Sequence record: OM313460 | Strand: one strand, 5' to 3' | DNA from: Escherichia phage vB_EcoM_IntR | DNA: 52,782 bases | Shown here: positions 4,601 to 48,314 of the stretch, piece by piece | Numbering within the stretch: the first letter of the stretch is position 1 | Layout of the letters: the number at the start of each line of letters is the position of its first letter | Program-made: the position numbers and the translations under genes | Notes under the pieces: generated by a model | Databases searched by the model: none | Seen by the model: only the letters and a program-made list of their open reading frames with translations | What the model was told of the DNA's origin: nothing

Positions 4601-5164
4601 ATGAAAATTGTTCAATTAGAACCATATCCGCCTCAATTGGCTATCGTTTGTAGCGAAAAAGAGCATGAAGAGCTCCAAAAGCTGATGGATTTGCCTGATT
4701 TTGGCAACTGGAATGACCGGGAAACGCGTAATGCGTCTACTTTTACGTTCACTCGCGTTAACTATCCGTACCTGTTAATCGTCGTCGAACTGTACCACCC
4801 GGACGACCTGAAGTACAACACCATTTCCCACGAAGGCATTCACGTAATGTCGTCGCTGATGAACTATGTAGGGCTTAAATACGACCCAGAAAACGATGAA
4901 TGGTACGCATATCAGCACGATTTCATCGTAAATGCCATTTGTAAGGCCCATGATGAGTACCTGGAGCGCAAAAAAGCGCCAAAACATAAGCCAAAAATCG
5001 AAACAGGCAATCATCCTGTGATACAGCCACAAGACGTAATGAACTCGCTTTTGACTGACACTACTGGGGACTTTTTAGATGATAAACCTAATCTTTGCAA
5101 TGGGCCAAAATGGGGAATTCGGGTTGTCCCCGGAGTTTATGAAGCATCAGGTGGACTCGTGTAA
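4601..5164 (+). CDS. hypothetical protein with HExxH motif (possible zinc metallopeptidase-like)
   Basis: ATG at 4601 (ORF-track start 4589 is GTG); motif ISHEGIHVM; 3' end overlaps the next gene by 86 nt. Confidence 0.45.
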   Translation: MKIVQLEPYPPQLAIVCSEKEHEELQKLMDLPDFGNWNDRETRNASTFTFTRVNYPYLLIVVELYHPDDLKYNTISHEGIHVMSSLMNYVGLKYDPENDEWYAYQHDFIVNAICKAHDEYLERKKAPKHKPKIETGNHPVIQPQDVMNSLLTDTTGDFLDDKPNLCNGPKWGIRVVPGVYEASGGLV

Positions 5165-5753
5165 GACTATGGAAGAGGTCCGTGCGCTTCCTAAGTCTGG
5201 TTTACCATGGAAGTGTCCGTCAGATATGCTCTTTTTCAGGACTATGACTAATTCAATTGCGTCAGAACCAGGCTATAATGCGTATCAGCAACTACGGGGA
5301 CAGTTCCCAAGTGACCAGTTGCGAAACATGATAGCTGATGTAACGGTAAAAATGGTTGGGCATAGCGTATTGTTAGCCGGTCGTAAAACGTTTATGACTA
5401 TGAGTCTGCCTATGTCAGCCCACCGAATACTGCTGCCGGTATCTCGTCAGATTATGGCTTCAGAAGGCTACAACAATATAGGTGAGTTGGCAGCAGCACT
5501 TGAGACCAGTGGTTCAGATGTTTGGATTGTTGGCGGTGCACAGTTAATACTTGCGGCTCTTGAAGAGCATGCCAAAGGTACACTCCGTGTTGACAACATG
5601 TTTATCAGCACAATCAAAGAAGCAGGTCCAAGTGATATATTAATGGACCGTAGCAAATTAATGATGTACATTGATAGCGACTTCACTTATAATGATGAAT
5701 ATGTTGATAACAAATCTGTGCTGATACAGCGTTACCGGAGTGTACACAAATGA
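5079..5753 (+). CDS. dihydrofolate reductase
   Basis: N-terminus MINLIFAMGQNGEFG, LPW motif, VLLAGRKTF and VWIVGGAQL blocks match DHFR signatures. Confidence 0.7.
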   Translation: MINLIFAMGQNGEFGLSPEFMKHQVDSCKTMEEVRALPKSGLPWKCPSDMLFFRTMTNSIASEPGYNAYQQLRGQFPSDQLRNMIADVTVKMVGHSVLLAGRKTFMTMSLPMSAHRILLPVSRQIMASEGYNNIGELAAALETSGSDVWIVGGAQLILAALEEHAKGTLRVDNMFISTIKEAGPSDILMDRSKLMMYIDSDFTYNDEYVDNKSVLIQRYRSVHK

Positions 5754-6256
5754 ATATCATAGTTGAGGGACCTGACAATGCTCGTAAATCTACACTTATT
5801 AAGTTCCTTGAACCTCATCTTGGCCGCGCAGTTATTCATAATACTGTTGACAAAGATGCCGAATCGGTCATGGCTAAACAGGCCAAAGAAAACGCGCTCG
5901 AAGGCAATAGTATTTACGACCGTAGCGCTGTTATATCTGAGTATATCTATTGCATGGTTCTTCAACGTACGCCTGTCATCAATATTAATGTATCACATGT
6001 AGCAGATATGTGTGACAACGCCATCGTTATCTTTTGTATGCCGCCTATTGAAAAGGTACTGGCGACTACAAAAGAAGAGATGCCTGGTGTTGTGGAAAAT
6101 CTTGAGGCGTTATACAACCAGTATGACAACCTCATTGACGAACTGGTTATGATGGGCAAGCAGTTCTTTATTTACGACTGGACTGCTGAAGAAAATGGCC
6201 CAGAAGCAGTTCTCGAATACATCAACGAACGTATTAATAAGGAGTGGAACAAATGA
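5750..6256 (+). CDS. thymidylate kinase-like dNMP kinase
   Basis: IIVEGPDNARKST aligns with the TMK P-loop (IVIEGLEGAGKTT) but lacks the glycines; DR motif (IYDRSAVISEY); ATGA-coupled to DHFR. Confidence 0.6.
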   Translation: MNIIVEGPDNARKSTLIKFLEPHLGRAVIHNTVDKDAESVMAKQAKENALEGNSIYDRSAVISEYIYCMVLQRTPVININVSHVADMCDNAIVIFCMPPIEKVLATTKEEMPGVVENLEALYNQYDNLIDELVMMGKQFFIYDWTAEENGPEAVLEYINERINKEWNK

Positions 6257-33739: not shown

Positions 33740-33753
33740 TGGCCCCTTTATTT
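33728..33753. terminator. bidirectional rho-independent terminator between convergent blocks
   Basis: GGGGCC-GAGTGAT-GGCCCC hairpin flanked by A-run upstream and TTTATTT downstream. Confidence 0.65.
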
Positions 33754-33755
33754 GA

Positions 33756-34034
33756 TTAAGCCTGCAGGAAGCCTGGGAACATATCAGCGCGTAAAGCAGC
33801 GCCCTTCAGTAACCAGATTTGGTCTTTAGCCTGTGCAAGCGCATTGTCCTGAGCTACTTGTTTGCCGATGTCTGCATTGAACTCTGCAGGGTCAACACAA
33901 CCAGAAGTACCTACACCTAACTGGAAGCCATCCAGCGTTGCCACACATACAGTTACAGTTGTATTCGGTACCTGCCAGAAATGATACTCCAGTTTATCAA
34001 CAAGAGCATTAACTTCTTTAAAATCTACTTTCAT
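33756..34034 (-). CDS. hypothetical protein
   Basis: 92-aa ORF, AAGGAAAG RBS, start overlaps upstream stop. Confidence 0.5.
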   Translation of the reverse strand: MKVDFKEVNALVDKLEYHFWQVPNTTVTVCVATLDGFQLGVGTSGCVDPAEFNADIGKQVAQDNALAQAKDQIWLLKGAALRADMFPGFLQA

Positions 34035-34258
34035 TATCGCTTTCCTTTCTTCTCGTTATACTGCGCGCAGGATGCACACAATACTGTACCGGGTAAGAGC
34101 TGACGTCGTTTTTCTTCAATGTCTTCCCCACACTGGTAGCACGTCAGCGGGCTTACTCCTGTGTATCTTACTCGGTTCGATAGCGCTGCGTCCCGGGCAA
34201 CTTGTTCAGCTTCAGAAGCCATATCATTAATGTCCGATGTGCGCGTAGTCTCAATCAT
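34034..34258 (-). CDS. DksA/TraR-type C4 zinc-finger protein
   Basis: CYQCGEDI...CASCAQ (CxxC-N17-CxxC), 74 aa; GAGGGA RBS. Confidence 0.55.
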   Translation of the reverse strand: MIETTRTSDINDMASEAEQVARDAALSNRVRYTGVSPLTCYQCGEDIEEKRRQLLPGTVLCASCAQYNEKKGKR

Positions 34259-34533
34259 TATTTTCCCTCTTCTTCACAATACAGGGTTTCTAATTCGTCG
34301 CATAGCTGTTGCGTCCAGCAATCATCCTCACCACGTATCTGGAAGCACAGCACAGGAATATCCTGTCGTAAAATATCGCTCTTGTAAATCTTTTTGGCAA
34401 CAGCTTCTGGTTCTTCCTGGAATATCTTCATAAACCAGTCCAGGCCTGACGTGCAGCCTGAGGCGTCTAGTATCTCCTTCGCCCTTAACTTAAGCGTTTC
34501 ATCTACTTCATACTCTAAACCTATCTTAGACAT
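34258..34533 (-). CDS. hypothetical acidic protein
   Basis: 91-aa ORF translationally coupled to the downstream gene. Confidence 0.45.
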   Translation of the reverse strand: MSKIGLEYEVDETLKLRAKEILDASGCTSGLDWFMKIFQEEPEAVAKKIYKSDILRQDIPVLCFQIRGEDDCWTQQLCDELETLYCEEEGK

Positions 34534-34548
34534 ATTATAGACCTTTAA

Positions 34549-36516
34549 TTAGTGTGCCTCTGCCCAGTTACTTTCTATCTTAGCATCAGTAAGAACAGGT
34601 ACACGAAGCGGTAGTACAGTTTCCATGACCCGTACGAAATCATAGAACCCATCTTCTGCTTGCTTACCAGACGGTAGAGAGAAGTTAAGCTCATCGTGTA
34701 CAGTCAGGCGAGGTACGCCAATCACGTCAAAGTAACCGTCTTCATACCCTTTCAGCATTGCAGACTTCATCTGGTCTGCTGACGACCCTTGCAGCACTCG
34801 GTTGATTGCCTTGTGGGTGTCTGCCAGTTTAATGTTCGGGCCATACTCCTGACGTGCTTCTTCAAATGGCAAAGGCATCTTCCCGAATCCACCACGCTTT
34901 GGTACCCACTTATTGAACCACGTCTTCCGGCCCATAAAGGTTTCTACGTACCCCTGGCTATAACATAAATCTTCATAATGCTTCATGGTAGCACCAATGA
35001 ATGGTGCGCCCTGATGGTACGCCTTCAGAACAGGTTCTGCTTCTTCAGGCGTCATTGCTAACTTACGGGCAAGAGCATTAAGCATCATGCCATATAGCAA
35101 ACCAAAGTTGATGGTCTTGGCTGGTTTACGCTCTATAACGTGACCTGAGGCTTCCTTGATAATATCGACCATAACATTGTGGTAATCTGCTTCCGGGTTA
35201 GCCGCGAAAATTGCTCGTAACTCATCAGCGCCCGGGCCGACTGCAAAATGCGCCATGAATCGATATTCAATTTGGGCGTAGTCTGCTGATCCCCATCTGT
35301 GTCCGACATCCGGTACGAAACAAGCACGAAGGAGTGGTCCCAGTATTTTGTGTCGAGACGGTATATTCTGCAGATTAGGGTCAGATGAGCTAAACCGACC
35401 ACTAACGGTTCCACCGTCATCACCGCGCATTTGATGGAATTGACCGTGAAGGAAGCCATTTGTATTCATCCCCAATATATAGCCACGAATAAACGTGGAC
35501 TGGATTTTTTCATAAGACTTAATCTCAGACACCAGTTCCGCAAACGGATGGTGCAAGCCTGCTAAGAAGTCTGCCGTAAACGACGGATTACCCGCCGCTG
35601 TTTTGAAGTACTCCAGACCTAAATGGTCAAATGCAAGAGCTAAGTCCGGACCTGAGTTAACGTTAATGTTAAAGCCAATCTGGTCTTTAATCTGCTGGTG
35701 CATTTTCCTTATTTCAGCGCTAAGCGTATCATCCGCCTCTTTGGCTTTATCAAGGTCAACACGCACACCTGCAAAACGCATCTTAAGCATTAATGGAATA
35801 AGCTTGCACTCCATATAGAATACATCTGTTAAACACCAGCGACTTAACAAAGGCCACTGGGCTTTGATAATGTGTATTGGTAAGTCGGCGTCAGATTCAG
35901 CATAGTAACCCACAAGACGAGGAGGCGTTTTGTAGATGTACTTTCTGGCTTCACCTGTTGGCTTACAGCCATAAGCATCTGAAATCCATTGGTACATCTC
36001 GGCTGAGTCTTTACCTTCGCCTACATACTTTCGTCCAAGTCCTTCAAGTGCAACACGCGCGCCTGGGTCAAGTAATGCTTCCGCGAATTGTACATCCATG
36101 CACAATCCTTTAACTTCCACGCCTTCTGCTGCAAGCCAGCCCAAGTCATATGTGATGTTAGCACCGACTTTAACTTGGTTAGGTCGCGAGAGTTCGAGCC
36201 GAAGCCAACCAAGTACTTCCTCAGCTGGAAGGTTATCCTCTTCGCCGAGCTCGTGTCTGATTGGGTAGTAAGCTTTGAAGCCGTTGTCCGTAGCGATACT
36301 AACTCCAACGATATGACCCTCCCTCCTGGCCCAACCACTACCATTTGTATCCATCCCTGGGTCGTATGTTTCACAGTCAAGACCGATAATCTTTGCAGAA
36401 GACAAATCCGGGTAATGCGCGCGCGGCCGCCATCCAGTATCCCTGACGTATGGTATAGGACGGTTGATAGGTTTAACATTCTTTGCACCTTCGAAGCTAT
36501 CGAATAAAAAGCTCAT
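34549..36516 (-). CDS. DNA polymerase, family A (with 3'-5' exonuclease domain)
   Basis: Exo I motif IGLDCETYD; Pol motif A DYAQIEYRF, motif B RKPAKTINFGLLYGM, motif C LTVHDEL. Confidence 0.85.
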   Translation of the reverse strand: MSFLFDSFEGAKNVKPINRPIPYVRDTGWRPRAHYPDLSSAKIIGLDCETYDPGMDTNGSGWARREGHIVGVSIATDNGFKAYYPIRHELGEEDNLPAEEVLGWLRLELSRPNQVKVGANITYDLGWLAAEGVEVKGLCMDVQFAEALLDPGARVALEGLGRKYVGEGKDSAEMYQWISDAYGCKPTGEARKYIYKTPPRLVGYYAESDADLPIHIIKAQWPLLSRWCLTDVFYMECKLIPLMLKMRFAGVRVDLDKAKEADDTLSAEIRKMHQQIKDQIGFNINVNSGPDLALAFDHLGLEYFKTAAGNPSFTADFLAGLHHPFAELVSEIKSYEKIQSTFIRGYILGMNTNGFLHGQFHQMRGDDGGTVSGRFSSSDPNLQNIPSRHKILGPLLRACFVPDVGHRWGSADYAQIEYRFMAHFAVGPGADELRAIFAANPEADYHNVMVDIIKEASGHVIERKPAKTINFGLLYGMMLNALARKLAMTPEEAEPVLKAYHQGAPFIGATMKHYEDLCYSQGYVETFMGRKTWFNKWVPKRGGFGKMPLPFEEARQEYGPNIKLADTHKAINRVLQGSSADQMKSAMLKGYEDGYFDVIGVPRLTVHDELNFSLPSGKQAEDGFYDFVRVMETVLPLRVPVLTDAKIESNWAEAH

Positions 36517-37511
36517 CAGTCCCCTCTCACATACGCAATTACAACTGTACGAGTTGAGTTTTCCATTTTGAGCGCCTGACTACCCAGTCCTATTCTTTCC
36601 ATGCCTTTAGCCAGTTTACTCATCTGACTAATAACACAGTTGAACGGTTTACTAAACTTAGTCGACTGGAACTTAATGTCGACGGACATCTTTGGAATAA
36701 TCTTATCTGGTAAGTCTGCCTTTGCAGTTGACTCGCCTGTTATCTCCAGAATAGCCTGACCTTCGTCGTACCCAGTAAGCTGGTCCATGACTTCCAGGAA
36801 CTCAGGAGTGATGGCCTGCATATCCATTTCCATATTGAAGAACTTCGATACGTCTGGCCATTTGGCTGCGAGTACCGGAGCATCCATCTGTACGCCATCC
36901 GCAAAGCCGAAGAACATCTGGCCGCGGGCGTATCCTACACTTGTGGGTTCCATCTTCAGCTTAACCAGGGCCTCAAGCATTGGTTTGGCTATGGCACATT
37001 CAAATTCAAAATCCACGTTCAACTTCTCGCGTATCATATACTTACCGTTAGTGGCGTAAGCATAACCATCGCGCAGAAGTAAAGATGTTGCCCATACCTG
37101 CGGTGCTTCGTTAGGTACCCATTTGGCTAAGGCAGTTAATACCGGGAGTAATTCGCCATGTGCTGAATACCAGTTGTTAACTGTAGCAAGCGGCGGTATT
37201 GGTTCATTAAGCGCTTGCATTCTTGTTTTAAGTACACCTGCTGTGACTGTGAGGTTTCCAGCGGCTGTAATGTTAAAAGTAATCTGTTCAGTTCTTGCCG
37301 CATTAACGGCCTTACGAAATGATTCAGCATCCACTTGCAGGTCTGGAAATCCTTTACATGGCGCTCGTAGTAATACGTTCTTGTAGTATGAATGGATTGT
37401 TCCGTCTGCAATCCATATTTTGCCCATAAGACCACTATCAGTATACTTGATGGGACGAGCTTGTTGAACGGCAGTCTGTATTTGTTTGGTGTCATAGTTA
37501 AACTTGCTCAT
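36516..37511 (-). CDS. hypothetical protein adjacent to the DNA polymerase gene
   Basis: 331-aa ORF; start follows a stable hairpin; function not recognisable by eye. Confidence 0.5.
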   Translation of the reverse strand: MSKFNYDTKQIQTAVQQARPIKYTDSGLMGKIWIADGTIHSYYKNVLLRAPCKGFPDLQVDAESFRKAVNAARTEQITFNITAAGNLTVTAGVLKTRMQALNEPIPPLATVNNWYSAHGELLPVLTALAKWVPNEAPQVWATSLLLRDGYAYATNGKYMIREKLNVDFEFECAIAKPMLEALVKLKMEPTSVGYARGQMFFGFADGVQMDAPVLAAKWPDVSKFFNMEMDMQAITPEFLEVMDQLTGYDEGQAILEITGESTAKADLPDKIIPKMSVDIKFQSTKFSKPFNCVISQMSKLAKGMERIGLGSQALKMENSTRTVVIAYVRGD

Positions 37512-37518
37512 AGTATAA

Positions 37519-37534
37519 CGGGGCCGAAGCCCCG
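37519..37534 (-). promoter_or_regulatory. stable intergenic hairpin (UUCG tetraloop on transcript strand)
   Basis: CGGGGC-CGAA-GCCCCG on the + strand, so CGGGGC-UUCG-GCCCCG in the leftward transcript, between the ThyA-family and downstream genes. Confidence 0.5.
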
Positions 37535-37541
37535 CTCCATC

Positions 37542-38426
37542 TTATACGGCCATTTGGAGTTTGATGTTTGGCATTGGTTTGTACTTCTCAACCATTGGCG
37601 TAACATCGGCAGGAGTGAAGTCAAACACTGACACGTCACAAATTGCATTAATGTCAGGACGACCTTCAAAGTTAGTGTCCAGTGTAGTATCAGAATTGCT
37701 TACGATACGTTGCAGGAAAATCTTTGCCGCATCGATATGATTCTGATAGATGTGATAATCACCCAGCGTAACAGTCATATCCCCTACACCAACACCCAGC
37801 TCAGCAGCAATGGTAATCTGCAACATCTGATGCAGCAGAATGTCATGAGGCAGGCCCAGAATAACATCCGCGCTACGCATATGGAACATCAGCTCTAATT
37901 CATTACGGTTGTTAATGAACAGCTGAAAACCATGGTAACAAGGCGGAAGGGCCATGGCGTCCATCTCTTGTGGGTTCCATGCCGTAACGTAAGCCCGGCG
38001 GTCGGTAGGTTTAACCTTCAGCGTTTCAATAACATCTTTAAGCTGGTTAGTGAGAACACCATTCTTATAGAATGGCTTAATCCACTGCACGCCGTACACA
38101 GGACCTAAGTCACGGTTGTCTGGTGTACCCCAACGTTTGTTTGCATCCTGCAGATTACCTTCCCACCAGTTGCAGCCAAAACCTTTGAGCGTATCGACAT
38201 TTGAAATGCCGTTGATAAAGCAATAAAGCTCAGCAGCAACAGCCTTGATGTTAACTGGTTTAAATACCGGTACCATCAGTTTGTTGTCCTTGAAAGCCAG
38301 CTTAAACGCTGTACCAAAACAACGGCGTGTACCAACACCTGTACGGTCTTCGACATCTTCACCCTTACGCAGGATAAACGAAATGATGTCGCTGTAAAGA
38401 GAATCGACAGTGCTGTATGTTTTCAT
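37542..38426 (-). CDS. ThyA-family pyrimidine C5-modifying enzyme, predicted dCMP-specific (hydroxymethylase or methyltransferase)
   Basis: DRTGVGT, DLGPVYGVQW, MALPPCYHGFQ (catalytic Cys), RSADVILGLPHD; Asp replaces the Asn177-equivalent and Tyr replaces His147; AAGGAA RBS. Confidence 0.75.
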   Translation of the reverse strand: MKTYSTVDSLYSDIISFILRKGEDVEDRTGVGTRRCFGTAFKLAFKDNKLMVPVFKPVNIKAVAAELYCFINGISNVDTLKGFGCNWWEGNLQDANKRWGTPDNRDLGPVYGVQWIKPFYKNGVLTNQLKDVIETLKVKPTDRRAYVTAWNPQEMDAMALPPCYHGFQLFINNRNELELMFHMRSADVILGLPHDILLHQMLQITIAAELGVGVGDMTVTLGDYHIYQNHIDAAKIFLQRIVSNSDTTLDTNFEGRPDINAICDVSVFDFTPADVTPMVEKYKPMPNIKLQMAV

Positions 38427-39019
38427 TAAAACAGTTCCTTTTGGGCCGGGTTAACGTGTGCGTCGATGATTGCCTGAATGTCAGGTGCTTTCCATCCTTC
38501 AGGCTTAACAATATCCTGACCAGACTTATGCTTACTGTTGCTTGCATCAGGCTTAGCGCGTTCTTTCGCCATGTTAGCAGCCTGTACCGCATCCCATGCA
38601 TCATCAAGTGGCCAGTTGTTGTTTGCACACCAGGTAATCAGGTGGATAATTAACTGTGCCAGACGGTCGCAATGAGTGTCTTCAGTATCCTTAACGTATA
38701 CGATAAGACCTTCAGCATCAAAGCGGTCCATAAATCCGCATGGCGTAGTCAATAGAATCGGATACTCAAATTCGTTGGTGAACCATGCTGTCTGGTCATA
38801 CAGGTATAACGTACCTGCAGCAATATAGATTAAGTCTACAATACCGTCTAAGAATCCAGCTTTATCGCCTTCTTTCTTAGCTTGCTTAATTTCATCCATC
38901 TCCTCAATAAGACGGTCATAACGAAGTTTGAACTCTGGCTTGCCGCCTTGACTAATCGGCTTGAGGTCAAACTTCTCGTGGAAAGCTGTAACACCTGCAG
39001 CAATTTTACTGAATCGCAT
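38426..39019 (-). CDS. MazG-like NTP pyrophosphohydrolase (candidate dCTPase/dUTPase)
   Basis: LIEEMDEI (EExxE-like) and LDGIVDLIYIAAG blocks; AAGGAG RBS; stop overlaps the ThyA-family start. Confidence 0.5.
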   Translation of the reverse strand: MRFSKIAAGVTAFHEKFDLKPISQGGKPEFKLRYDRLIEEMDEIKQAKKEGDKAGFLDGIVDLIYIAAGTLYLYDQTAWFTNEFEYPILLTTPCGFMDRFDAEGLIVYVKDTEDTHCDRLAQLIIHLITWCANNNWPLDDAWDAVQAANMAKERAKPDASNSKHKSGQDIVKPEGWKAPDIQAIIDAHVNPAQKELF

Positions 39020-39404
39020 TTCTTAACTCCTTACAAACAGTTTCGATAAACTTACGTTTTGTTTCAGTAGACCAGATTATATGTCGGGCCTTCTCTAATA
39101 CGTCCCAGCGGTCTTTACCCACAGGAAAGGGAACAATGAAGAGGCCGGTGCGAGATATACGCTTGATAAACGGGAACTTGCAACGCATGGTTGTTTCAAA
39201 TTTGATAAAGTTATTTTGCGCTTCGCGTGTAAATTTAACCTTATCAAATTCATGCTCGAGTGTTTGAGCAAGGTTGCATACCTCATGGAAAGAGGATGCA
39301 GGCAGGTAGTCTTCACGACCGACAGTGTTTACGTAGTCGATTTGACCTTCAAGACGAAGTATCCAAATTCTATAATAAGCTTCAGCGACACGTTGTAGAT
39401 TCAT
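39006..39404 (-). CDS. hypothetical protein
   Basis: 132-aa ORF with GAGGAGAG RBS, first gene downstream of the 39431-39459 promoter. Confidence 0.5.
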   Translation of the reverse strand: MNLQRVAEAYYRIWILRLEGQIDYVNTVGREDYLPASSFHEVCNLAQTLEHEFDKVKFTREAQNNFIKFETTMRCKFPFIKRISRTGLFIVPFPVGKDRWDVLEKARHIIWSTETKRKFIETVCKELRNAIQ

Positions 39405-39430
39405 TGTATCTCTCCTCTAAAAGATAACTT

Positions 39431-39459
39431 ATTATACCACATCACTCTCTAGTGGTAAA
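39431..39459 (-). promoter_or_regulatory. sigma70-type promoter on the minus strand (TTTACC-N17-TATAAT)
   Basis: Reverse complement of 39431-39459 reads TTTACC-17 nt-TATAAT. Confidence 0.55.
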
Positions 39460-39474
39460 GCACTTTTTATGCTT

Positions 39475-39509
39475 CGGGTAAAATAAAAAGGACCAGCGTT
39501 AACTGGTCC
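39475..39509 (-). terminator. rho-independent terminator (minus strand)
   Basis: GGACCAG-CGTTAA-CTGGTCC hairpin followed on the minus strand by TTTTTATTTT. Confidence 0.7.
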
Positions 39510-39741
39510 TTATGGCAGGGTGGCGTAAGGAGATACAAGGAATCGCAGTTATGCAACCAGGCAGCGCATATGAGATTGGCTTAAGGACTGACCGACTTAA
39601 TCCCCGCGACGAGTCGAAAGGAGGTACCATCAAGTAGCCAATCACATATGCGTTACTTGCTGTGTGCTCTTACCACAGAAAGTATATAGCGTTACACTTA
39701 TCACACAGTTGTAGTGGCAAAAGCACACAGCAAGTACAACC

Positions 39742-39828
39742 TTAGTTGTGGTGTCTTAGCACCTGAGTTATTGTGGATAACCTGCACCCGACGGGTGTCA
39801 AAAAGATACGCCAAAACACCACAACTAA
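39742..39828. repeat. 13-bp perfect inverted repeat pair flanking a DnaA-box-like 9-mer
   Basis: TTAGTTGTGGTGT at 39742-39754 and ACACCACAACTAA at 39816-39828; TGTGGATAA (reverse complement TTATCCACA) at 39772-39780; palindrome CACCCGACGGGTG at 39785-39797. Confidence 0.5.
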
Positions 39829-40079
39829 AATTGTGACCGCCGTCTACACCAGGCGCCTGGGGTCAAGGTAGCGAGCCAATACCCTTTTCAGCGTCGGAGG
39901 AATCGAACCTCACACATCACGGCTTTTACCAAATCTCGGTCAGCGAGCAGAATTGAACTGCATTCACTGGACACCCTCACTGTTTCAACACACCAGGCTT
40001 AATTGATTGTTGATAAGAAGAGAGATGTAAGGATGTCCATTGAATGCACCTCCGTAGAGGTGCGTTCAGATCAGCGCTA

Positions 40080-40547
40080 TTATTCAGCAACTTCTTCGTT
40101 GTCGCCTTCGATCGCGCCAGCCAGTTTAGCAGCTTCAGCTTTAGCAGCTTCTGCTTTCTGGCGAGCTTTTTCAGCTTTCTCTTCAGCTTTGCGAATCTGC
40201 TCAGCAGCTTTCGCTTCGGCTTTTTCAGCTTTGATGCGAGCACGCTCTTCAGCTTTACGCTGTTTTTCAGCAGCTTTAGCAGCATCGCGTTCTGCTTTAG
40301 CGGTATCAACGCGCTTAGCCAGAACTTTACCAGTGGCTTTACGCCAGTAGGTCAGCTGGGAAGAAACAGTACCACGGGACATTTCGGTAGTGGCAACAAC
40401 TTCGTCCATAACATCGGAGCTGGACTTGCCTTCTTCATGGGCTTTATCAGCCAGGTCCCATACGTAACGTGCGCCAGTACCAGCTGCCGGATACAGTACG
40501 CCGTTAACTTCTTCTTTACCAGTTACAAAAGTCAGTTTCTCGCTCAT
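40080..40547 (-). CDS. hypothetical protein with C-terminal Lys/Ala/Glu-rich single-helix repeat
   Basis: ATG at 40545-40547 with GAGGAAAA RBS; C-terminus KAEKAEAKAAEQIRKAEEKAEKARQKAEAAKAEAAK; overlapping + strand ORFs are low-complexity mirror frames. Confidence 0.5.
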   Translation of the reverse strand: MSEKLTFVTGKEEVNGVLYPAAGTGARYVWDLADKAHEEGKSSSDVMDEVVATTEMSRGTVSSQLTYWRKATGKVLAKRVDTAKAERDAAKAAEKQRKAEERARIKAEKAEAKAAEQIRKAEEKAEKARQKAEAAKAEAAKLAGAIEGDNEEVAE

Positions 40548-40653
40548 AATTTTTTCCTCGTCTACAGGGCTTAATGTTTGTTCGTTACGTGAGTTAATAT
40601 ACGTCATTTAAAAGAGAGTGTAAACACCTTTTTTAAACTTTTTTCATTAGTGT

Positions 40654-40881
40654 TTAGAAAGGCACATCATAGTCAAAAAGTTTACATCCGGAAGACAGGA
40701 CTGCCGGCGGTGGTGTTTTGCCTCCGGATAATAGACAACCTCCTGCCTGAAAGCTACGGCAGTTCGCACAGCTCATATCCTGCAGGTATATAATAAGCTG
40801 CCGGCGAACGTGCCGAGGCAAAGCTTTAGCCTGGGTTGCTACCCGTTCAAATAGTTCTCTGTTATCGAGCGCCATAGCCAT
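40654..40881 (-). CDS. hypothetical Cys-containing small protein
   Basis: 75-aa ORF overlapping the helicase 3' end by 20 nt. Confidence 0.3.
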   Translation of the reverse strand: MAMALDNRELFERVATQAKALPRHVRRQLIIYLQDMSCANCRSFQAGGCLLSGGKTPPPAVLSSGCKLFDYDVPF

Positions 40882-42532
40882 TTCCCCAGTCGTAGTTCAT
40901 GATTTGTGGGTAGGGCCGTTTAATCCATACCTTAATACGCTTAGGAATGGCCAGCTCACCCTTACGGCGGATAAACTCGTCGCATGTTTCAGGCGGTTCG
41001 GTTCCTGCAGCATTACGCCACCAGGCATCTGCCATTTGTTTAGCATTACCATGGGCCTCAATATTTACCCAAGTTGTGTACACTTCCAGGTTTGAGTAGT
41101 ACACAACCTTTATACTGTCAGGTCGTCCTTGCTTCTGGAATAAAGAATAGTTTACCAGCGTAACATCTTTATCCACAACACGAAGCTGGCCATTAGTCAT
41201 TACTTCTTCTTCTGACGAAGTGAATGCAATAGCAGGTCCGTTAACTGTAAATTCAAATTCATGTCCGCACATCGGATATACACCATTCTCATCTGGCGTA
41301 CTTCCTTTAGCCGGATGCTTACACGTACGGGCGGCATAACCACTTACCTGGTGGCAGATAGGGCACTCTTTACCGCCAGGTGTTTTCTCTGACCGTTTCT
41401 TTTTCTTCTTACCAAGACGTGGCGGAACAGCCGGGTCATCAATAGGCCCAAGGTCAATGGTGTTAGATGTAAAGTCCATGACAAGACAGTCATGCTTACC
41501 AGGCGCTGTACGTAACCCTCGACCGAGTATCTGCACCCACAAAGCAACAGACGTGGACGGGCGCAAGATGCCGAGCATATCAATCTCAGGATAGTCAAAT
41601 CCTGTTGTCAATACGTTTACGTTTACACAGACCCGTGCTCGTCCGCTTGTAAACTCTTCCAGCGCCGTTTCACGTTCTTTCTTTGTAAGACCGCCATGCA
41701 CAACTACAGTCTGCCACCCTCGCAGATTAAATTCGTCTGCTATGTTGTGGGCGTGTTCAACACTTGTGGCGAATACAAGAACGTGGTTCCTGTCTTTACC
41801 GTAGTGCATCATCTCGCGGATGGCTGCAACTGTTATGCTGTGTTGGTTGGCTACCTTCTCAAGCTCTGACGGTATATAATCACCCATCCTTTCGCCAACA
41901 TTACTGGTGTCAATCTTGGTTAACACTTTCTTGTTGACCAGGCGTGACAGGAAGCCTTCATTTACCAGTCTGGTGAATGCGTCAGGTGTTGTAAGGTCAT
42001 AGCAGATGTCGGTAAATATACCGCAGTCAAGTAAGTGACCACCCGCCAGTCGATACGGAGTTGCTGTAAGGCCTGTTACCTTTACCTTAGGATTAAGCTC
42101 TTTGAAATGAGCAATAACCTTACGGTATGTTGTTTCAGACTTCTCAGGAACAAGATGGGCTTCGTCAATGAATATAAGATTGAACTTACCTGCTTCTTCC
42201 AGGTTCTTAATAATCGACTGTACTGACGCTACAACGATACGACCTGAAAAGTCTTTGTGTCCTGCGCCTGAAGAGTAGATTGATACTGGTGCTTGCGGCC
42301 AGTGGCGAACAATCGCTTTGGCGTCTTGTTCTACCAGCTCCTTGACGTGTGTCAATATAAGAATACGCTGACGTGGATAGCTGGTAAGAATATCCTTCAT
42401 CAACATACCAAGCACAGGTGATTTACCTGAACCTGTAGGCATGACAATAAGTGGATTACCACTATAAGAATTGAAGTACGACCACCAAGCTGTGACCGCT
42501 TCTTTTTGATACCAGCGAGCTTCAAAAGCCAT
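40862..42532 (-). CDS. SF2 DNA helicase (DEAH-type)
   Basis: Motif I MPTGSGKS, motif II FIDEAH, motif III TATP, motif VI QILGRGLR; C-terminal Cys cluster CPICH...C. Confidence 0.8.
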   Translation of the reverse strand: MAFEARWYQKEAVTAWWSYFNSYSGNPLIVMPTGSGKSPVLGMLMKDILTSYPRQRILILTHVKELVEQDAKAIVRHWPQAPVSIYSSGAGHKDFSGRIVVASVQSIIKNLEEAGKFNLIFIDEAHLVPEKSETTYRKVIAHFKELNPKVKVTGLTATPYRLAGGHLLDCGIFTDICYDLTTPDAFTRLVNEGFLSRLVNKKVLTKIDTSNVGERMGDYIPSELEKVANQHSITVAAIREMMHYGKDRNHVLVFATSVEHAHNIADEFNLRGWQTVVVHGGLTKKERETALEEFTSGRARVCVNVNVLTTGFDYPEIDMLGILRPSTSVALWVQILGRGLRTAPGKHDCLVMDFTSNTIDLGPIDDPAVPPRLGKKKKKRSEKTPGGKECPICHQVSGYAARTCKHPAKGSTPDENGVYPMCGHEFEFTVNGPAIAFTSSEEEVMTNGQLRVVDKDVTLVNYSLFQKQGRPDSIKVVYYSNLEVYTTWVNIEAHGNAKQMADAWWRNAAGTEPPETCDEFIRRKGELAIPKRIKVWIKRPYPQIMNYDWGNGYGAR

Positions 42533-42590
42533 TTAACGTCTCCTCATTAACTTCATATATTATACCACTTCCTTGTGGTGATGTATACTT

Positions 42591-43469
42591 TTATTTTAAG
42601 GAAAGTTTAACGGGCTTCTCATCCTGTGGGAAGACATCAGCAGGGCGATACTCATCGCAAGCCGCTAATTGCTCTTCGATTGTTTCGAGTTCTTTCTGGT
42701 GCTTGTTGCAGTACCACACTTTGCCCTGAAGCGGTTTACTGTAATGGCAGGTTCTGCAGTTCCTGTCTGGCATTGCTCCTTTGTGGCACAAGTGATGGTA
42801 TTCGCACATCCCTGGTTTGCACTCCCACCAAATAGGCGATTCAGAAATCTTCGGCATATCCAAACCAGATTCCGCATATACAACAGCCTCCGCTTTACTC
42901 AGTTGTATGTCGCTTTCCAGTAAGTCAATCTCGACCACTTCAAAATACATCTCGTCAGTGTTCTTGTTGATTGCAATATACACAGCTTGATTCAGCTTAA
43001 GCTTCCGCATGTACACCTGCATCTGGGCGTAGTGTACCGGCTTACTTGCTTTAACAGACTTGAGCTTGACTAACTCTTTAAACGACTTATCGCCATGCGT
43101 CTTGAATTCAGCAAGTGCCCATACGCCTTTGTATTTAATTACACAGTCACAAGACCCAGAGAAGATGTCATTGAAGTCGTGTATGCGCCATTGCTTACCA
43201 GTCTTGGGATTGACGTCCAGCACTTCGTCACATACGGAACGAAGCCACTTTACAATTCTGCTTTCTTCAAGGTTACCACGTTCAAACAGACGAAGTTGCT
43301 TAGCTGTAAACTTCTCCTTGAACGACCAGTGCAGAACGTGCCAAAGATAGCGATAGCAGTTGTGTCCTATCTGCGATGCTCCAAGATGCCCGCGTCGTTC
43401 TTCTCTTTCATGGGCTTCGACTATCTTGATGTCAATACGTTTCTGCAGGTCGTTAAACGGACTGGGCAT
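42591..43469 (-). CDS. RecB-family (Cas4-like) PD-(D/E)XK exonuclease with Cys cluster
   Basis: ATG at 43467-43469 with GAGGAG RBS; DCVIKYKGVWALAEFK (D...ExK), QMQVY (QhxxY), C-terminal CKPGMCEYHHLC...CRTC. Confidence 0.6.
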   Translation of the reverse strand: MPSPFNDLQKRIDIKIVEAHEREERRGHLGASQIGHNCYRYLWHVLHWSFKEKFTAKQLRLFERGNLEESRIVKWLRSVCDEVLDVNPKTGKQWRIHDFNDIFSGSCDCVIKYKGVWALAEFKTHGDKSFKELVKLKSVKASKPVHYAQMQVYMRKLKLNQAVYIAINKNTDEMYFEVVEIDLLESDIQLSKAEAVVYAESGLDMPKISESPIWWECKPGMCEYHHLCHKGAMPDRNCRTCHYSKPLQGKVWYCNKHQKELETIEEQLAACDEYRPADVFPQDEKPVKLSLK

Positions 43470-43938
43470 TGTTAAACTCCTCAACGCTGAATTCATCATA
43501 CACAATATTATGTGCCCACAAATGGGCGACGGCATTTGCCATGCTGTCCTTCCATTTGGATTGAGAAGCTGTGTGTGCCAATGCAACTACCCGAACCAGG
43601 TTAAGGTTGGCTATCAGCATATCTGCACAATGTTCGCACGGCGGGTAGGTTATGTAGATGGTAACCGGGCCTAATGAAGGAGTGTCTAACTCACTCCTTA
43701 TATTAGCTAAGGTATTTATCTCGCTATGAATAGTGAGAGCGTTCTTGAGGCTATTAGGCACTATTCTTATAGAGTCTAGCTGCGTAGGCAGACCGTTATA
43801 TCCAGTGGAAATAATACGCTTGTTCTGGTCCACAAGAACGCTACCGACTTGACGTTTCGGGTCCTTCGACCAGCTTGCAACTTCACAAGCTATGCGCATA
43901 AACCGCTTATCCCACTTGTCCATCTTCTTCTTTTGCAT
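43453..43938 (-). CDS. dCMP deaminase (cytidine/deoxycytidylate deaminase family)
   Basis: Zinc-binding HSE (HSEINTL) and PCEHC motifs; GGAGA RBS. Confidence 0.8.
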   Translation of the reverse strand: MQKKKMDKWDKRFMRIACEVASWSKDPKRQVGSVLVDQNKRIISTGYNGLPTQLDSIRIVPNSLKNALTIHSEINTLANIRSELDTPSLGPVTIYITYPPCEHCADMLIANLNLVRVVALAHTASQSKWKDSMANAVAHLWAHNIVYDEFSVEEFNNAQSV

Positions 43939-45749: not shown

Positions 45750-45809
45750 ATTCTCTCTCCTCATGTGTATAGAGGTATTATACACCACTTACATGGGGTA
45801 AGTACACTA

Positions 45810-46256: not shown

Positions 46257-46279
46257 AGTACTCTCCAGGGAGGAAGATA

Positions 46280-46297: not shown

Positions 46298-46304
46298 GAA
46301 GTTA

Positions 46305-48295: not shown

Positions 48296-48314
48296 GTAAG
48301 TCTCCAAAAGTCAA

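What the first reader, a model, noticed from the sequence alone, without database searches (positions are those of the whole stretch)
37542..39019. ThyA homolog with Asp at the pyrimidine-specificity position, coupled to a MazG-like pyrophosphatase: candidate cytosine C5-modification pathway
The 294-aa protein aligns block-for-block with thymidylate synthase (DRTGxGT, DLGPVYGxQW, ALxPC catalytic Cys, RSxDVxLGLP, GDxHxYxNH). At the residue equivalent to E. coli TS Asn177, which reads the O4/N3 face of dUMP, it has Asp (LGLPHD rather than LGLPFN), and His147 is replaced by Tyr (PCYH). Asn-to-Asp at this position is known to switch TS from dUMP to dCMP, and T4 dCMP hydroxymethylase naturally carries Asp there. 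The gene is translationally coupled to a MazG-like all-alpha NTP pyrophosphohydrolase, the arrangement expected for a dCTP-depleting enzyme feeding dCMP to a C5-modifying enzyme. This predicts that the phage DNA carries 5-hydroxymethyl- or 5-methylcytosine.
Basis: partly seen in the sequence, partly recalled or inferred. Interest (0 to 1): 0.85.

Follow-up and report, generated by a model that had tools for sequence, protein, structure and literature searches.

The report
Phage pathway for methylated-cytosine DNA
This Salmonella/E. coli phage carries a thymidylate-synthase look-alike rebuilt to act on cytosine nucleotides, plus four helper enzymes, which most likely replace the cytosine in its DNA with 5-methylcytosine, a trick already known from phage Xp12 that would explain why DNA of related phages resists restriction enzymes.

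Summary
ORF 37542-38426(-) is a full-length PF00303 enzyme (E=3e-63). It has Asp at E. coli Asn177 and Tyr at His147, and I also find Trp at Ile79, Met at Gln165 and His at Phe176. Its start overlaps by one base (TAATG) the stop of a PF01503 all-alpha NTP pyrophosphohydrolase at 38426-39019(-).

The genome also encodes a DHFR, a dNMP kinase and a dCMP deaminase. That is the enzyme set of Xanthomonas phage Xp12, whose DNA has 5mC in place of C: four genes are pairwise homologous, and no Xp12 kinase counterpart was found in the 26 kb examined.

Published work already links Asp177 TS homologs, PRA-PH and deaminase domains to cytosine-modified phage DNA, and shows that such TS homologs make 5mdCMP. 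DNA of fHy-Eco03 and S144, which carry this same TS signature, resists restriction enzymes. The one enzyme that cuts fHy-Eco03 (ScaI) cuts 5mC DNA partially but not 5hmC DNA.

The retained TS C-terminal tail, the DHFR and the absence of transferase genes favour 5mC over 5hmC. This is a new member of a known kind, and databases label it plain thymidylate synthase. No chemistry was tested here.

The parts
37542..38426 (-). Thymidylate-synthase-family enzyme with a remodelled pyrimidine pocket (E. coli numbering: W79, Y147, M165, H176, D177); predicted dCMP C5-methyltransferase
   Evidence: PF00303 E=3e-63. Residue mapping. AF2 model pLDDT 92, with full-length TS as nearest solved structures, TM 0.82. 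28% identity and E=3e-27 to the Xp12 enzyme.
38426..39019 (-). All-alpha NTP pyrophosphohydrolase (PRA-PH / dimeric-dUTPase-like); its stop overlaps the TS start by 1 nt; predicted dCTP (possibly also dUTP) pyrophosphatase supplying dCMP
39006..39404 (-). First gene of the operon (132 aa, function unknown); overlaps the pyrophosphohydrolase start by 14 nt; probably not a core pathway component
   Evidence: phrog_36727, unknown function. Conserved in S144 and fHy-Eco03, where it was detected by LC-MS/MS. No homolog upstream of the PPase in L005 or Xp12.
39431..39459 (-). Sigma-70-like promoter (TTTACC-17-TATAAT with TG extension) for the orf132-PPase-TS-clamp-PolA transcription unit
   Evidence: 10/12 consensus match. 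BP63's annotation places a promoter at the equivalent position. This is a consensus match only.
39488..39511 (-). Terminator-like hairpin (10-bp stem followed by a T run) that closes the preceding unit just upstream of the promoter
36516..37511 (-). DNA polymerase processivity factor (clamp-like), 30 nt downstream of the TS gene in the same unit
   Evidence: phrog_947 E=2e-47
34549..36516 (-). Family A DNA polymerase with 3'-5' exonuclease; the enzyme that would incorporate the modified dNTP
   Evidence: PF00476 E=1.6e-63 and PF01612. DNA_pol_A is among the top five domains co-localised with deaminase/TS on cytosine-modified contigs.
43453..43938 (-). dCMP/dCTP-deaminase-family enzyme; predicted to make thymidine nucleotides from 5-methyl-dC nucleotides
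   Evidence: PF00383 E=2e-21. 33% identity and E=4e-23 to the Xp12 deaminase. Conserved in distant clade members. The functional analogy is to mSCD-B5.
5079..5753 (+). Dihydrofolate reductase-like protein (224 aa with an insertion); recycles the DHF that only methyl-transfer chemistry produces
   Evidence: PF00186 E=3.4e-8, above the cutoff. phrog_316 E=6e-27. PDB DHFR E=8e-6 with the PW..P.D...F...T and GGAQ motifs conserved. E=3e-6 to the Xp12 DHFR.
5750..6256 (+). P-loop dNMP kinase ('thymidylate kinase' family); predicted 5-methyl-dCMP kinase
   Evidence: phrog_761 E=1e-23. A homologous kinase domain is fused to the PRA-PH pyrophosphohydrolase in P0145, next to an Asp177 TS homolog and a deaminase.

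Best explanation
The phage encodes an Xp12-type pathway that replaces cytosine with 5-methylcytosine at the nucleotide-pool level, before DNA synthesis. The proposed steps are these. (1) The all-alpha pyrophosphohydrolase (38426-39019) hydrolyses dCTP to dCMP + PPi, which depletes the canonical precursor and supplies substrate. (2) The TS homolog (37542-38426) binds dCMP instead of dUMP and transfers the methylene and a hydride from CH2-THF, giving 5-methyl-dCMP + DHF. Its base pocket is rebuilt (Asn177->Asp, Gln165->Met, His147->Tyr, Phe176->His, with Ile79->Trp nearby), while its methyl-transfer machinery and C-terminal tail are intact. (3) The DHFR (5079-5753) regenerates THF. (4) The phage dNMP kinase (5750-6256) phosphorylates 5mdCMP, and host NDP kinase completes 5mdCTP. 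(5) The phage family A polymerase, co-transcribed with steps 1 and 2, incorporates it. (6) The deaminase (43453-43938) converts part of the 5-methyl-dC nucleotide pool into thymidine nucleotides. Shown here: gene presence, residue identities, gene-for-gene homology to four Xp12 genes, conserved linkage, and the statistical association of Asp177 with PRA-PH. Taken from the literature: Asp177 homologs make 5mdCMP, and relatives' DNA resists restriction. Inferred: the substrate of each enzyme in this phage, and 5mC as the final base.
For: 1. The pocket is rebuilt but the core is kept. Across 31 clade members (51-98% identity), W79, Y147, M165 and H176 occur in 31/31 and D177 in 29/31, whereas 89/89 canonical TS have I/H/Q/F/N. 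R21, E58, W80, Y94, C146, R166, S167, D169, H207 and Y209 are all kept.
2. All three Asp177 enzymes compared lose Gln165: Xp12 has Leu and T4 gp42 has Met.
3. Four genes are homologous to Xp12's 5mC operon, which reads PF01503 hydrolase, TS, deaminase, DHFR: TS E=3e-27, PPase E=3e-10, deaminase E=4e-23, DHFR E=3e-6.
4. The Xp12 TS homolog and 5 of 7 metagenomic Asp177 homologs made 5mdC in E. coli. Their contigs are enriched for PRA-PH, DNA_pol_A and deaminase domains (10.1101/2024.12.05.627091). MetaGPA ranks positions 177 and 147 as the top discriminators (PMC8670742).
5. In my own sample of 80 IMG/VR TS loci, 5/5 with Asp177 have a PRA-PH PPase within 10 kb versus 3/74 with Asn177, Fisher p=2.5e-6.
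6. The PPase-TS stop/start overlap and the deaminase...helicase...PPase-TS-clamp-PolA order persist in members whose TS is 54-74% identical.
7. A natural kinase-PPase fusion sits next to an Asp177 TS homolog and a deaminase.
8. Published digests fit. fHy-Eco03 DNA was cut only by ScaI among 10 enzymes (PMC8145870). S144 DNA was cut only by the AT-only sites SspI and PacI, whichever host it was grown on (PMC7432712). Both phages carry the same TS signature.
9. 5mC is favoured over 5hmC for four reasons. ScaI cuts Xp12 5mC DNA partially while T4gt 5hmC DNA is resistant, and NcoI, SphI, AflII, Sau3AI and SmaI are blocked on both (NotI is blocked on Xp12 and has no site in T4gt) (PMC7653180). The canonical C-terminal tail is kept (...PNIKLQMAV) whereas T4 CH lacks it. 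A DHFR is present although this is the phage's only TS-family gene, and hydroxymethylases release THF, not DHF. No glycosyl-, carbamoyl- or DNA-methyltransferase domain was found in the non-structural ORFs scanned.
Against: No enzyme activity and no base composition was measured for this phage or for any relative closer than 74% TS identity. The restriction data come from relatives whose TS is 74% (S144) and 58% (fHy-Eco03) identical.

The ScaI discriminator rests on a single enzyme, different suppliers, and a T4gt preparation that still carried about 17% glucosylated 5hmC.

The window clade does not group specifically with the validated Xp12 enzyme (6/100 bootstraps), and 2 of 7 Asp177 homologs tested by NEB gave no 5mdC.

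The protein is closer to canonical TS (37-40% identity) than to Xp12's enzyme (26-28%), and it passes NCBI's TIGR03284 TS equivalog cutoff.

The close relative CF2 is recorded with an E. coli K-12 host, and MG1655 was an isolation strain in that study. K-12 McrBC/McrA should attack 5mC DNA, and no anti-Mcr gene was identified.

The PPase's nucleotide specificity is unknown, and its nearest structural relatives are dUTPases. No kinase homolog was found in the 26 kb of Xp12 examined.
Confidence: 0.66

Rival explanations
1. The enzyme is a dCMP hydroxymethylase, as in T4. The TS homolog would add the methylene to dCMP and water would quench the intermediate, giving 5hmdCMP + THF, so the virion DNA would carry 5hmC, either bare or further decorated by an unrecognised enzyme.
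For: Asp at position 177 and Met at position 165 are shared with T4 gp42. The restriction resistance of S144 and fHy-Eco03 at most sites fits 5hmC as well as 5mC. Sequence alone has no validated rule separating methylases from hydroxymethylases, and none is given in the NEB papers. Many ORFs of unknown function remain in the genome.
Against: Identity to gp42 is only 20-22% (E=3e-6 over 110 residues). The full TS C-terminal closure tail and W80 are retained, whereas gp42 and the L007 homolog lack the tail. The DHFR would have no phage-made DHF to recycle. ScaI cut fHy-Eco03 DNA but not T4gt 5hmC DNA. No glycosyl- or carbamoyltransferase was detected. All tested deaminase-linked Asp177 homologs that gave a product gave 5mdC.
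Confidence: 0.16
2. The enzyme is an ordinary thymidylate synthase after all. Despite Asp177 it would make dTMP from dUMP, with the deaminase, kinase, DHFR and a dUTPase-like pyrophosphohydrolase forming a conventional phage dTTP-supply pathway, as the S144 authors assumed. The restriction resistance of related phages would then have another cause.
For: Canonical TS are the closest characterised relatives by sequence and structure (37-40% identity, TM 0.82), and the protein passes the TIGR03284 equivalog cutoff. The gene set is formally the same as a dTMP pathway. The PPase's best structural matches are dUTPases. Two clade members carry Asn at position 177.
Against: Five positions in or next to the active site differ from 89/89 canonical TS and are fixed across the clade. 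Asn177->Asp alone converts TS to a dCMP methylase (Liu & Santi 1992 and Hardy & Nalivaika 1992, as cited). Asp177 is strongly associated with cytosine-modified contigs. No other candidate modification genes were found that could explain the published resistance of S144 and fHy-Eco03 DNA. The Asn variant P0013 nests inside the clade, and both Asn variants sit on contigs of about 1-1.5 kb.
Confidence: 0.08
3. The pathway is a detour to thymidylate without DNA modification. 5mdCMP would be made but quantitatively deaminated to dTMP/dTTP, so the pathway would only supply thymidine and virion DNA would keep canonical C.
For: The deaminase is conserved with the TS in all clade members examined. mSCD-type deaminases convert 5mdCTP to dTTP efficiently. 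This would remove the conflict with McrBC-positive hosts.
Against: It does not explain the restriction resistance of S144 and fHy-Eco03 DNA at C-containing sites. In Xp12 the same enzyme set gives full 5mC substitution. A dCTP-depleting PPase and a dedicated kinase are hard to justify if only dTMP is wanted.
Confidence: 0.05

Closest known systems
Xanthomonas phage Xp12 5-methylcytosine pathway (deoxycytidylate C-methyltransferase, EC 2.1.1.54, with its neighbouring PF01503 hydrolase, dCMP-family deaminase and DHFR; MT664984)
   Same: Four genes are homologous one for one. Both TS homologs have Asp177 and have lost Gln165. In both, the PF01503 gene lies immediately upstream of the TS gene. Both phages carry a DHFR and a family A polymerase. 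The published restriction pattern of the relative fHy-Eco03 mirrors Xp12's (ScaI cuts; NcoI, NotI, SphI, AflII, Sau3AI and SmaI do not).
   Different: The virus backbone is different: a 52.8-kb enterobacterial myophage versus a 63.8-kb Xanthomonas siphophage (Bosavirus). TS identity is only 26-28% and the two do not group specifically in a tree (6/100). The window enzyme has Y147/M165/H176 where Xp12 has P/L/Y, and it keeps the full canonical C-terminal tail where Xp12's is 4 residues shorter. Here the module is split over three loci (5.1-6.3 kb, 37.5-39.0 kb, 43.5-43.9 kb) instead of one operon. The window PPase has an insertion of about 50 residues and lacks Xp12's C-terminal extension of about 100 residues.
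Metagenomic Asp177 TS / PRA-PH / dCMP-deaminase / DNA_pol_A modules on cytosine-modified viral contigs (MetaGPA, eLife 2021; mSCD-B5 preprint 2024)
   Same: The domain combination and the discriminating residues (177 and 147) are the same. TS homologs of this kind were shown to produce 5mdC, and their deaminases to turn 5mdCTP into dTTP.
   Different: Those papers do not mention Salmonella, Escherichia, BP63-type or Rosemountvirus phages. Here the deaminase lies about 5 kb from the TS, outside their +/-3 kb window. Whether any tested protein belongs to this W79/Y147/M165/H176/D177 clade is unknown.
Bacteriophage T4 dCMP hydroxymethylase gp42 with dCTPase/dUTPase gp56, dNMP kinase gp1, dCMP deaminase Cd and DHFR Frd
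   Same: The logic is the same: deplete dCTP, modify dCMP at C5 with a TS-fold enzyme carrying Asp at the specificity position, phosphorylate with a phage kinase, and incorporate with a phage polymerase. Met replaces Gln165 in both.
   Different: Identity to gp42 is 20-22%, and gp42 lacks the C-terminal tail. The PPase shows no detectable similarity to gp56. There is no second, canonical TS and there are no glucosyltransferases here. The predicted product is methyl rather than hydroxymethyl.
Canonical thymidylate synthase ThyA (EC 2.1.1.45)
   Same: The fold, the dimer-type architecture, the catalytic Cys and the phosphate-binding Arg residues, the folate-side residues and the C-terminal tail are all shared. 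ThyA is the closest characterised relative by sequence (37-40% identity), and the protein passes the TIGR03284 cutoff.
   Different: Five substitutions in or next to the pyrimidine pocket are each absent from 89/89 canonical TS, including the Asn177 that defines dUMP specificity. There are also 8- and roughly 20-residue insertions.

Membership tests
Thymidylate synthase / dCMP hydroxymethylase superfamily (Pfam PF00303) | Full-length match to the family profile above the curated cutoff | tested here: met
   213.8 bits versus a cutoff of 24.3, profile positions 3-266 of 266; AF2 model TM 0.82 to solved TS structures
Thymidylate synthase / dCMP hydroxymethylase superfamily (Pfam PF00303) | Catalytic nucleophile Cys146 and the nucleotide-phosphate/ribose ligands (R21, R166, S167, D169, H207, Y209) | tested here: met
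   All are present and invariant in the clade
Canonical thymidylate synthase ThyA (EC 2.1.1.45) | Asn177 (with Gln165 and His147) reading the O4/N3-H face of dUMP | tested here: not met
   Asp, Met and Tyr at these positions, versus N/Q/H in 89/89 canonical TS
Canonical thymidylate synthase ThyA (EC 2.1.1.45) | Score above the curated equivalog cutoffs | tested here: inconclusive
   Passes TIGR03284 (175.9 versus 108.35) but fails NF002497 (190 versus 327) and the other equivalog models
Deoxycytidylate C-methyltransferase, Xp12 type (EC 2.1.1.54) | TS-fold enzyme with Asp at the Asn177 position | tested here: met
Deoxycytidylate C-methyltransferase, Xp12 type (EC 2.1.1.54) | Sequence homology to the experimentally validated Xp12 enzyme | tested here: inconclusive
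   It is homologous (28% identity, E=3e-27), but no closer to Xp12 than to canonical TS, and the two are not sister groups in the NJ tree (6/100)
Deoxycytidylate C-methyltransferase, Xp12 type (EC 2.1.1.54) | Methyl (hydride) transfer producing DHF; retained C-terminal closure tail and a partner DHFR | tested here: met
   This is indirect evidence only: the tail ...PNIKLQMAV and W80 are retained, and a DHFR is encoded with its catalytic motif conserved. The product itself was not measured.
Deoxycytidylate C-methyltransferase, Xp12 type (EC 2.1.1.54) | Forms 5-methyl-dCMP from dCMP + CH2-THF; virion DNA has 5mC in place of C | not testable with these tools
   Only indirect support: relatives' DNA resists restriction with an Xp12-like pattern
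dCMP hydroxymethylase, T4 gp42 type (EC 2.1.2.8) | Asp at the specificity position | tested here: met
dCMP hydroxymethylase, T4 gp42 type (EC 2.1.2.8) | Open folate site: lacks the ~27 C-terminal residues of TS (PMC5175136) | tested here: not met
   The window protein aligns with canonical TS through to its C-terminal tail ending ...MAV, whereas gp42 ends soon after the HxY motif
dCMP hydroxymethylase, T4 gp42 type (EC 2.1.2.8) | Accompanying enzymes that decorate 5hmC (glucosyl-, arabinosyl- or carbamoyltransferase) | tested here: not met
   No such Pfam domain in the non-structural ORFs scanned. Small or novel enzymes cannot be excluded.
All-alpha NTP pyrophosphohydrolase superfamily (MazG / HisE PRA-PH / dimeric dUTPase) | Profile match and the acidic metal-binding motifs (EExxE ... 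DxxxD) on a helical bundle | tested here: met
All-alpha NTP pyrophosphohydrolase superfamily (MazG / HisE PRA-PH / dimeric dUTPase) | dCTP-specific hydrolysis to dCMP + PPi (the role assigned here) | not testable with these tools
   Inferred from conserved coupling to Asp177 TS genes and by analogy to T4 gp56, with which it shares no detectable sequence similarity
MazG family proper (PF03819) | Match to the MazG profile | tested here: not met
   Only PF01503 was reported at E<=0.01. 'MazG-like' holds at superfamily level only.

The most novel reading that the evidence does not exclude
The W79/Y147/M165/H176/D177 enzymes could be a separate, unusually TS-like lineage whose product is not plain 5mC. 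It might be undecorated 5hmC or a new C5 adduct completed by one of the many unknown early genes. Alternatively, the phage might pair full 5mC substitution with an undiscovered inhibitor of McrBC/McrA-type restriction that lets it grow on E. coli K-12.
Probability: 0.15. Interest if true: 0.7.

Novelty: new member of a known kind. Interest (0 to 1): 0.5.

Why it matters
Rosemountvirus and Loughboroughvirus phages are among the most often isolated candidates for Salmonella and E. coli biocontrol. The phage collection searched here holds 61 genome records with this gene, and nearly all annotated ones call it 'thymidylate synthase'.

Two papers reported that DNA of related phages resists restriction enzymes and could not name the genes responsible (PMC7432712, PMC8145870). 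This analysis gives a concrete, testable explanation: a five-enzyme pathway, four of whose genes match Xp12's, that puts 5mC in place of C.

If it is right, several things follow:
- It affects how these phages evade or trigger host defences (type II versus type IV restriction).
- It affects how their DNA behaves in cloning, nanopore sequencing and bisulfite/EM-seq workflows.
- It affects how the genes should be annotated.
- It provides an easily grown enterobacterial model for full 5mC substitution.
- It provides a very TS-like dCMP methylase for studying how few pocket changes switch pyrimidine specificity.

The underlying principle is not new.

Tried and rejected
1. I suspected the window was an artificially mutated copy of swi3, because it has the same length and coordinates, differs at 3.4% of sites and has no indels. 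I rejected this: the differences are mostly third-codon transitions, are unevenly distributed, and 93 of 342 match BP63. None touches the key residues.

2. I considered orf132 (39006-39404) as a conserved pathway component. It has no homolog upstream of the PPase in L005 or Xp12, so I rejected that.

3. The Lys/Ala/Glu-rich ORF at 40080-40607 is not homologous to Xp12's 'TolA protein'.

4. The PPase shows no similarity to T4 gp56 dCTPase.

6. I looked for a published residue rule that separates methylases from hydroxymethylases, or 5mC-specific from ordinary deaminases. Neither NEB paper states one.

7. I looked for direct modification or digestion data on phages at least 95% identical to the window (swi3, vB_SenM-1, the SPLA phages, AV127, CF2) and found none.

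8. I tested whether the clade arose independently by a recent Asn->Asp switch within canonical TS. The NJ tree does not support this: all canonical TS cluster together 100/100 and exclude every Asp177 lineage. Rooting and long-branch effects leave the question of a single origin open.

9. PADLOC found nothing relevant.

10. Using IMG/VR to count clade members was not informative, because only one clade contig (L008) came back. I reused the other loci as a comparison set.
Full report
**What the window is.** The 52,782-bp window is a complete genome of a BP63-like myophage (genus Rosemountvirus). A 4.2-kb query around the finding matches 57 phage records, 40 of them at 95-99% identity. The window has the same length and gene coordinates as Escherichia phage vB_EcoM_swi3 (MT768059). 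Over the 10.2 kb I compared, it differs from swi3 at 3.4% of sites and has no indels. The differences are mostly third-codon transitions, are unevenly spread, and often match BP63 (93 of 342), so they look like natural polymorphism. None affects the residues at issue.

**The observation.** It is confirmed in full.
- ORF 37542-38426(-) encodes a 294-aa protein that matches PF00303 end to end (E=3e-63).
- A high-confidence HMMER alignment to a solved TS puts Tyr on His147, His on Phe176 and Asp on Asn177.
- ORF 38426-39019(-) encodes a 197-aa protein with a PF01503 (PRA-PH) match above the gathering cutoff, plus phrog_671 'nucleotide pyrophosphohydrolase'.
- The two genes share one base (TAATG), and a Shine-Dalgarno-like AAGGA lies inside the end of the upstream gene.
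- A terminator-like hairpin (39511-39488) and an extended -10 promoter-like site (39459-39431) precede a tight unit: orf132, PPase, TS, clamp, PolA. BP63's annotation has a promoter at the equivalent place.

**The TS homolog belongs to a distinct, conserved subfamily.** A search of 5.8 billion proteins returns 31 clusters at 51-98% identity, mostly on 44-54 kb contigs. The next hits are canonical 264-aa bacterial TS at 35-40% identity.
- Inside the clade, five positions in or next to the active site differ from the canonical enzymes. Ile79->Trp, His147->Tyr, Gln165->Met and Phe176->His occur in 31/31 members, and Asn177->Asp in 29/31. All 89 canonical sequences keep I/H/Q/F/N.
- The catalytic and phosphate-binding residues (R21, E58, W80, Y94, C146, R166, S167, D169, H207, Y209) and the C-terminal tail (...PNIKLQMAV) are kept.
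- The AF2 model is confident (pLDDT 92). Its nearest solved structures are full-length mammalian and viral TS (TM 0.82).
- By established knowledge, Asn177 (oriented by Gln165) reads the O4/N3-H face of dUMP. Asn->Asp alone converts TS into a dCMP methylase (Liu & Santi 1992 and Hardy & Nalivaika 1992, as cited in PMC8670742). The MilA paper notes Asp in every cytosine-specific family member and Asn in the uracil-specific ones.
- In my alignment, the validated Xp12 methylase and T4 gp42 also have Asp177 and have also lost Gln165 (Leu and Met respectively).

**The rest of the pathway lies elsewhere in the genome.**

| Gene | Coordinates | Evidence |
|---|---|---|
| DHFR-like | 5079-5753(+) | PF00186 above cutoff; catalytic PW..P.D...F...T and GGAQ motifs conserved |
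| P-loop dNMP kinase | 5750-6256(+), abutting the DHFR | phrog_761, E=1e-23 |
| dCMP-deaminase-family enzyme | 43453-43938(-) | PF00383, E=2e-21 |

No glycosyl-, carbamoyl- or DNA-methyltransferase domain turned up in the other non-structural ORFs.

**Comparison with Xp12.** Xp12 is the classic phage with C fully replaced by 5mC. It carries, on one strand and in order, a 'HAD hydrolase' that is really a PF01503 protein, then the TS homolog, a dCMP deaminase and a DHFR. Each is homologous to the window's counterpart:

| Pair | Result |
|---|---|
| TS | E=3e-27, 28% identity |
| PPase | E=3e-10 and 2e-6 (two blocks) |
| Deaminase | E=4e-23, 33% identity |
| DHFR | E=3e-6 |

T4 gp42 is much more distant (20-22% identity, E=3e-6), and T4 gp56 shows no similarity to the PPase.

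**Conservation of linkage.**
- In clade members whose TS is only 54-55% identical (L005, L006), the order is deaminase, exonuclease, helicase, x, PPase, TS, clamp, PolA. The PPase (41% identity, E=1e-39) again ends where the TS gene starts.
- S144 and fHy-Eco03 show the same arrangement.
- An unrelated 58-kb contig (L007) encodes a single protein, P0145. It fuses a kinase domain homologous to the window's kinase (E=4e-8) to the PRA-PH domain, and is followed by an Asp177 TS homolog and a deaminase. This fusion ties the kinase to the same pathway.
- Among 80 diverse viral TS loci from IMG/VR, all 5 with Asp177 have a PRA-PH-family gene within 10 kb, against 3 of 74 with Asn177 (Fisher p=2.5e-6). 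Four of the five share one signature (Y79/H147/Q165/Y176/D177), so this adds about two independent lineages to Xp12 and L007.

**What the literature already says.**
- MetaGPA (eLife 2021, PMC8670742) found TS to be the domain most strongly associated with cytosine-modified viral DNA. Positions 177 and 147 were the top discriminating residues, and PF01503 and dCMP-deaminase domains were co-occurring partners.
- A 2024 NEB preprint (10.1101/2024.12.05.627091) reports that 70% of deaminase genes on modified contigs lie near a TS gene. The top co-localised domains are Thymidylat_synt, MafB19-deam, PRA-PH, DNA_pol_A and DNA_pol_A_exo1.
- The same preprint shows that the Xp12 TS homolog and 5 of 7 Asp177 homologs produce 5mdC in E. 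coli when co-expressed with T4 gp1 kinase. It also shows that the linked deaminase mSCD-B5 converts 5mdCTP to dTTP.
- Neither paper mentions Salmonella, Escherichia or BP63-type phages.

**Published wet-lab evidence on relatives.**
- fHy-Eco03 was classified as a Rosemountvirus by its authors. Of 10 restriction enzymes tried on its DNA, only ScaI cut, and the authors concluded that 'an unknown modification' was present (PMC8145870).
- S144 belongs to the sister genus Loughboroughvirus. Its DNA was cut only by SspI and PacI, whose sites are pure A/T, whichever of three hosts it was grown on. The authors inferred cytosine modification, could not find the genes, and read the TS, deaminase, kinase and DHFR as an ordinary dTTP pathway (PMC7432712).
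- I verified that both phages carry the W79/Y147/M165/H176/D177 signature, the MAV tail and the overlapping PPase gene. Their TS proteins are 58% and 74% identical to the window's.
- In fHy-Eco03, the TS, the PPase and the orf132 homolog were detected by LC-MS/MS in phage preparations, so they are expressed.

**5mC or 5hmC.** Four lines favour 5mC.
1. In the NEB survey, ScaI cleaves Xp12 (5mC) DNA partially, while T4gt (5hmC) DNA is fully resistant. NcoI, SphI, AflII, Sau3AI and SmaI are blocked on both; NotI is blocked on Xp12 and has no site in T4gt (PMC7653180). 'Only ScaI cuts' is the fHy-Eco03 pattern.
2. The enzyme keeps W80 and the complete C-terminal tail. In TS that tail closes over the folate, and T4 CH lacks it, leaving its site open. 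From my own knowledge of the TS literature, deleting the tail or altering W80 uncouples hydride transfer and exposes the methylene intermediate to solvent.
3. This is the phage's only TS-family gene, yet the phage carries a DHFR. Hydroxymethylases release THF and need no DHFR, and Xp12 also encodes one.
4. No enzyme for decorating 5hmC was found.

Each line is indirect, and the ScaI argument rests on a single enzyme and an imperfect T4gt control.

**Phylogeny.** An NJ tree (264 columns, 100 bootstraps) places all canonical Asn177 TS in one cluster that excludes every Asp177 lineage (100/100). The window clade is monophyletic (100/100). It is sister neither to Xp12 (6/100) nor to the Y79/Y176 group (0/100). 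The rare Asn variant P0013 nests inside the clade. I therefore cannot claim an independent origin. The clade is a deep and unusually TS-like branch among the cytosine-specific enzymes.

**Annotation consequence.** NCBI's TIGR03284 'thymidylate synthase' equivalog scores the protein at 175.9 bits against a cutoff of 108.35, whereas Xp12's enzyme falls just below the cutoff. This explains why nearly all of the 61 phage records with this gene call it thymidylate synthase.

**Caveats.**
- No chemistry was measured for this phage.
- The nearest phage with digestion data has a TS that is 74% identical.
- Two of the seven Asp177 homologs in the NEB test gave no 5mdC.
- The PPase's specificity is unknown.
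- CF2, whose TS is 96.9% identical, is recorded with an E. coli K-12 host, and MG1655 was an isolation strain in that study. K-12's McrBC and McrA should restrict 5mC DNA, and I found no anti-Mcr candidate.

**Verdict.** The most likely reading is an Xp12-type nucleotide-pool pathway giving 5mC-substituted DNA (confidence about 0.66). The rivals are 5hmC (about 0.16), ordinary TS (about 0.08) and a thymidylate-only detour (about 0.05). This is a new member of a known kind. It explains two published unexplained observations and exposes a systematic misannotation, but it does not add a new principle.

Noticed in passing
window 33500-43700 versus MT768059.1 (L001): The window has exactly the length (52,782 bp) and gene coordinates of phage swi3, yet differs at 342 of 10,201 positions with no indel, even in intergenic DNA. 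The differences are transition-biased (255/342), mostly at third codon positions and unevenly spread (2 to 52 per 500 nt), and 93 of them match BP63, so they look natural. Zero indels at this level of divergence is still unusual.
   Followed up: partly
L007 10001-10972 (protein P0145), Logan SRR26541667 contig, 58 kb: This is a natural fusion of a P-loop dNMP-kinase domain (38% identical to the window's kinase, E=4e-8) with the PRA-PH pyrophosphohydrolase domain. It is followed by an Asp177/Leu165 TS homolog that lacks the C-terminal tail (hydroxymethylase-like) and by a dCMP deaminase. It appears to be a third, unrelated phage backbone carrying the same module.
   Followed up: partly
L010, L012, L017, L030 (IMG/VR contigs): A second Asp177 TS subfamily has the signature Y79/H147/Q165/Y176/D177. 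It keeps His147 and Gln165, and in each case a weakly matching PRA-PH-family gene lies about 80-500 nt downstream of the TS gene. Its product is unknown. It shows that Asp177 occurs in more than one pocket context.
   Followed up: partly
proteins P0013 and P0022 (contigs of 1.0-1.6 kb): Two members of the window's TS clade carry Asn instead of Asp at position 177 while keeping W79, Y147, M165 and H176. In the tree, P0013 nests inside the clade. These could be true reversions, which would be interesting for specificity, or assembly or sequencing errors at a single G/A position.
   Followed up: partly
window 39006-39404 (-): A 132-aa protein of unknown function (phrog_36727) is the first gene of the PPase-TS-clamp-PolA unit and overlaps the PPase start by 14 nt. 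It is conserved in S144 and in fHy-Eco03, where it was detected by LC-MS/MS. It has no detectable homolog at the equivalent position in the more distant clade contig L005 or in the Xp12 region examined.
   Followed up: partly
KY608966 (phage CF2), TS 96.9% identical to window 37542-38426: The GenBank host field says E. coli K-12, and the paper lists MG1655 as an isolation strain. K-12 carries the McrBC, McrA and Mrr restriction systems, which target 5mC/5hmC DNA. If the DNA is modified as predicted, an unidentified anti-restriction function may exist among the many small early ORFs (window 150-4400 and 45500-49600).
   Followed up: no
window 38795-38645 (PPase residues ~75-125): The Rosemountvirus-type pyrophosphohydrolases carry an insertion of about 50 residues between the two conserved helical blocks. 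Most family members, including Xp12's, lack it. The insertion is modelled with lower confidence (pLDDT about 71 for residues 81-90).
   Followed up: no
L088 1525-2073 (fHy-Eco03 gp64): In fHy-Eco03 an HNH homing endonuclease gene is inserted between the deaminase and the exonuclease genes. The window and S144 have no such gene there.
   Followed up: no
window 40080-40607 (-): A 175-aa protein has a highly Lys/Ala/Glu-rich C-terminal half (AEKAEAKAAEQIRKAEEKAEKARQKAEAAKAEAAK...). It has no Pfam hit and is not homologous to the 'TolA protein' annotated at a similar position in Xp12.
   Followed up: partly
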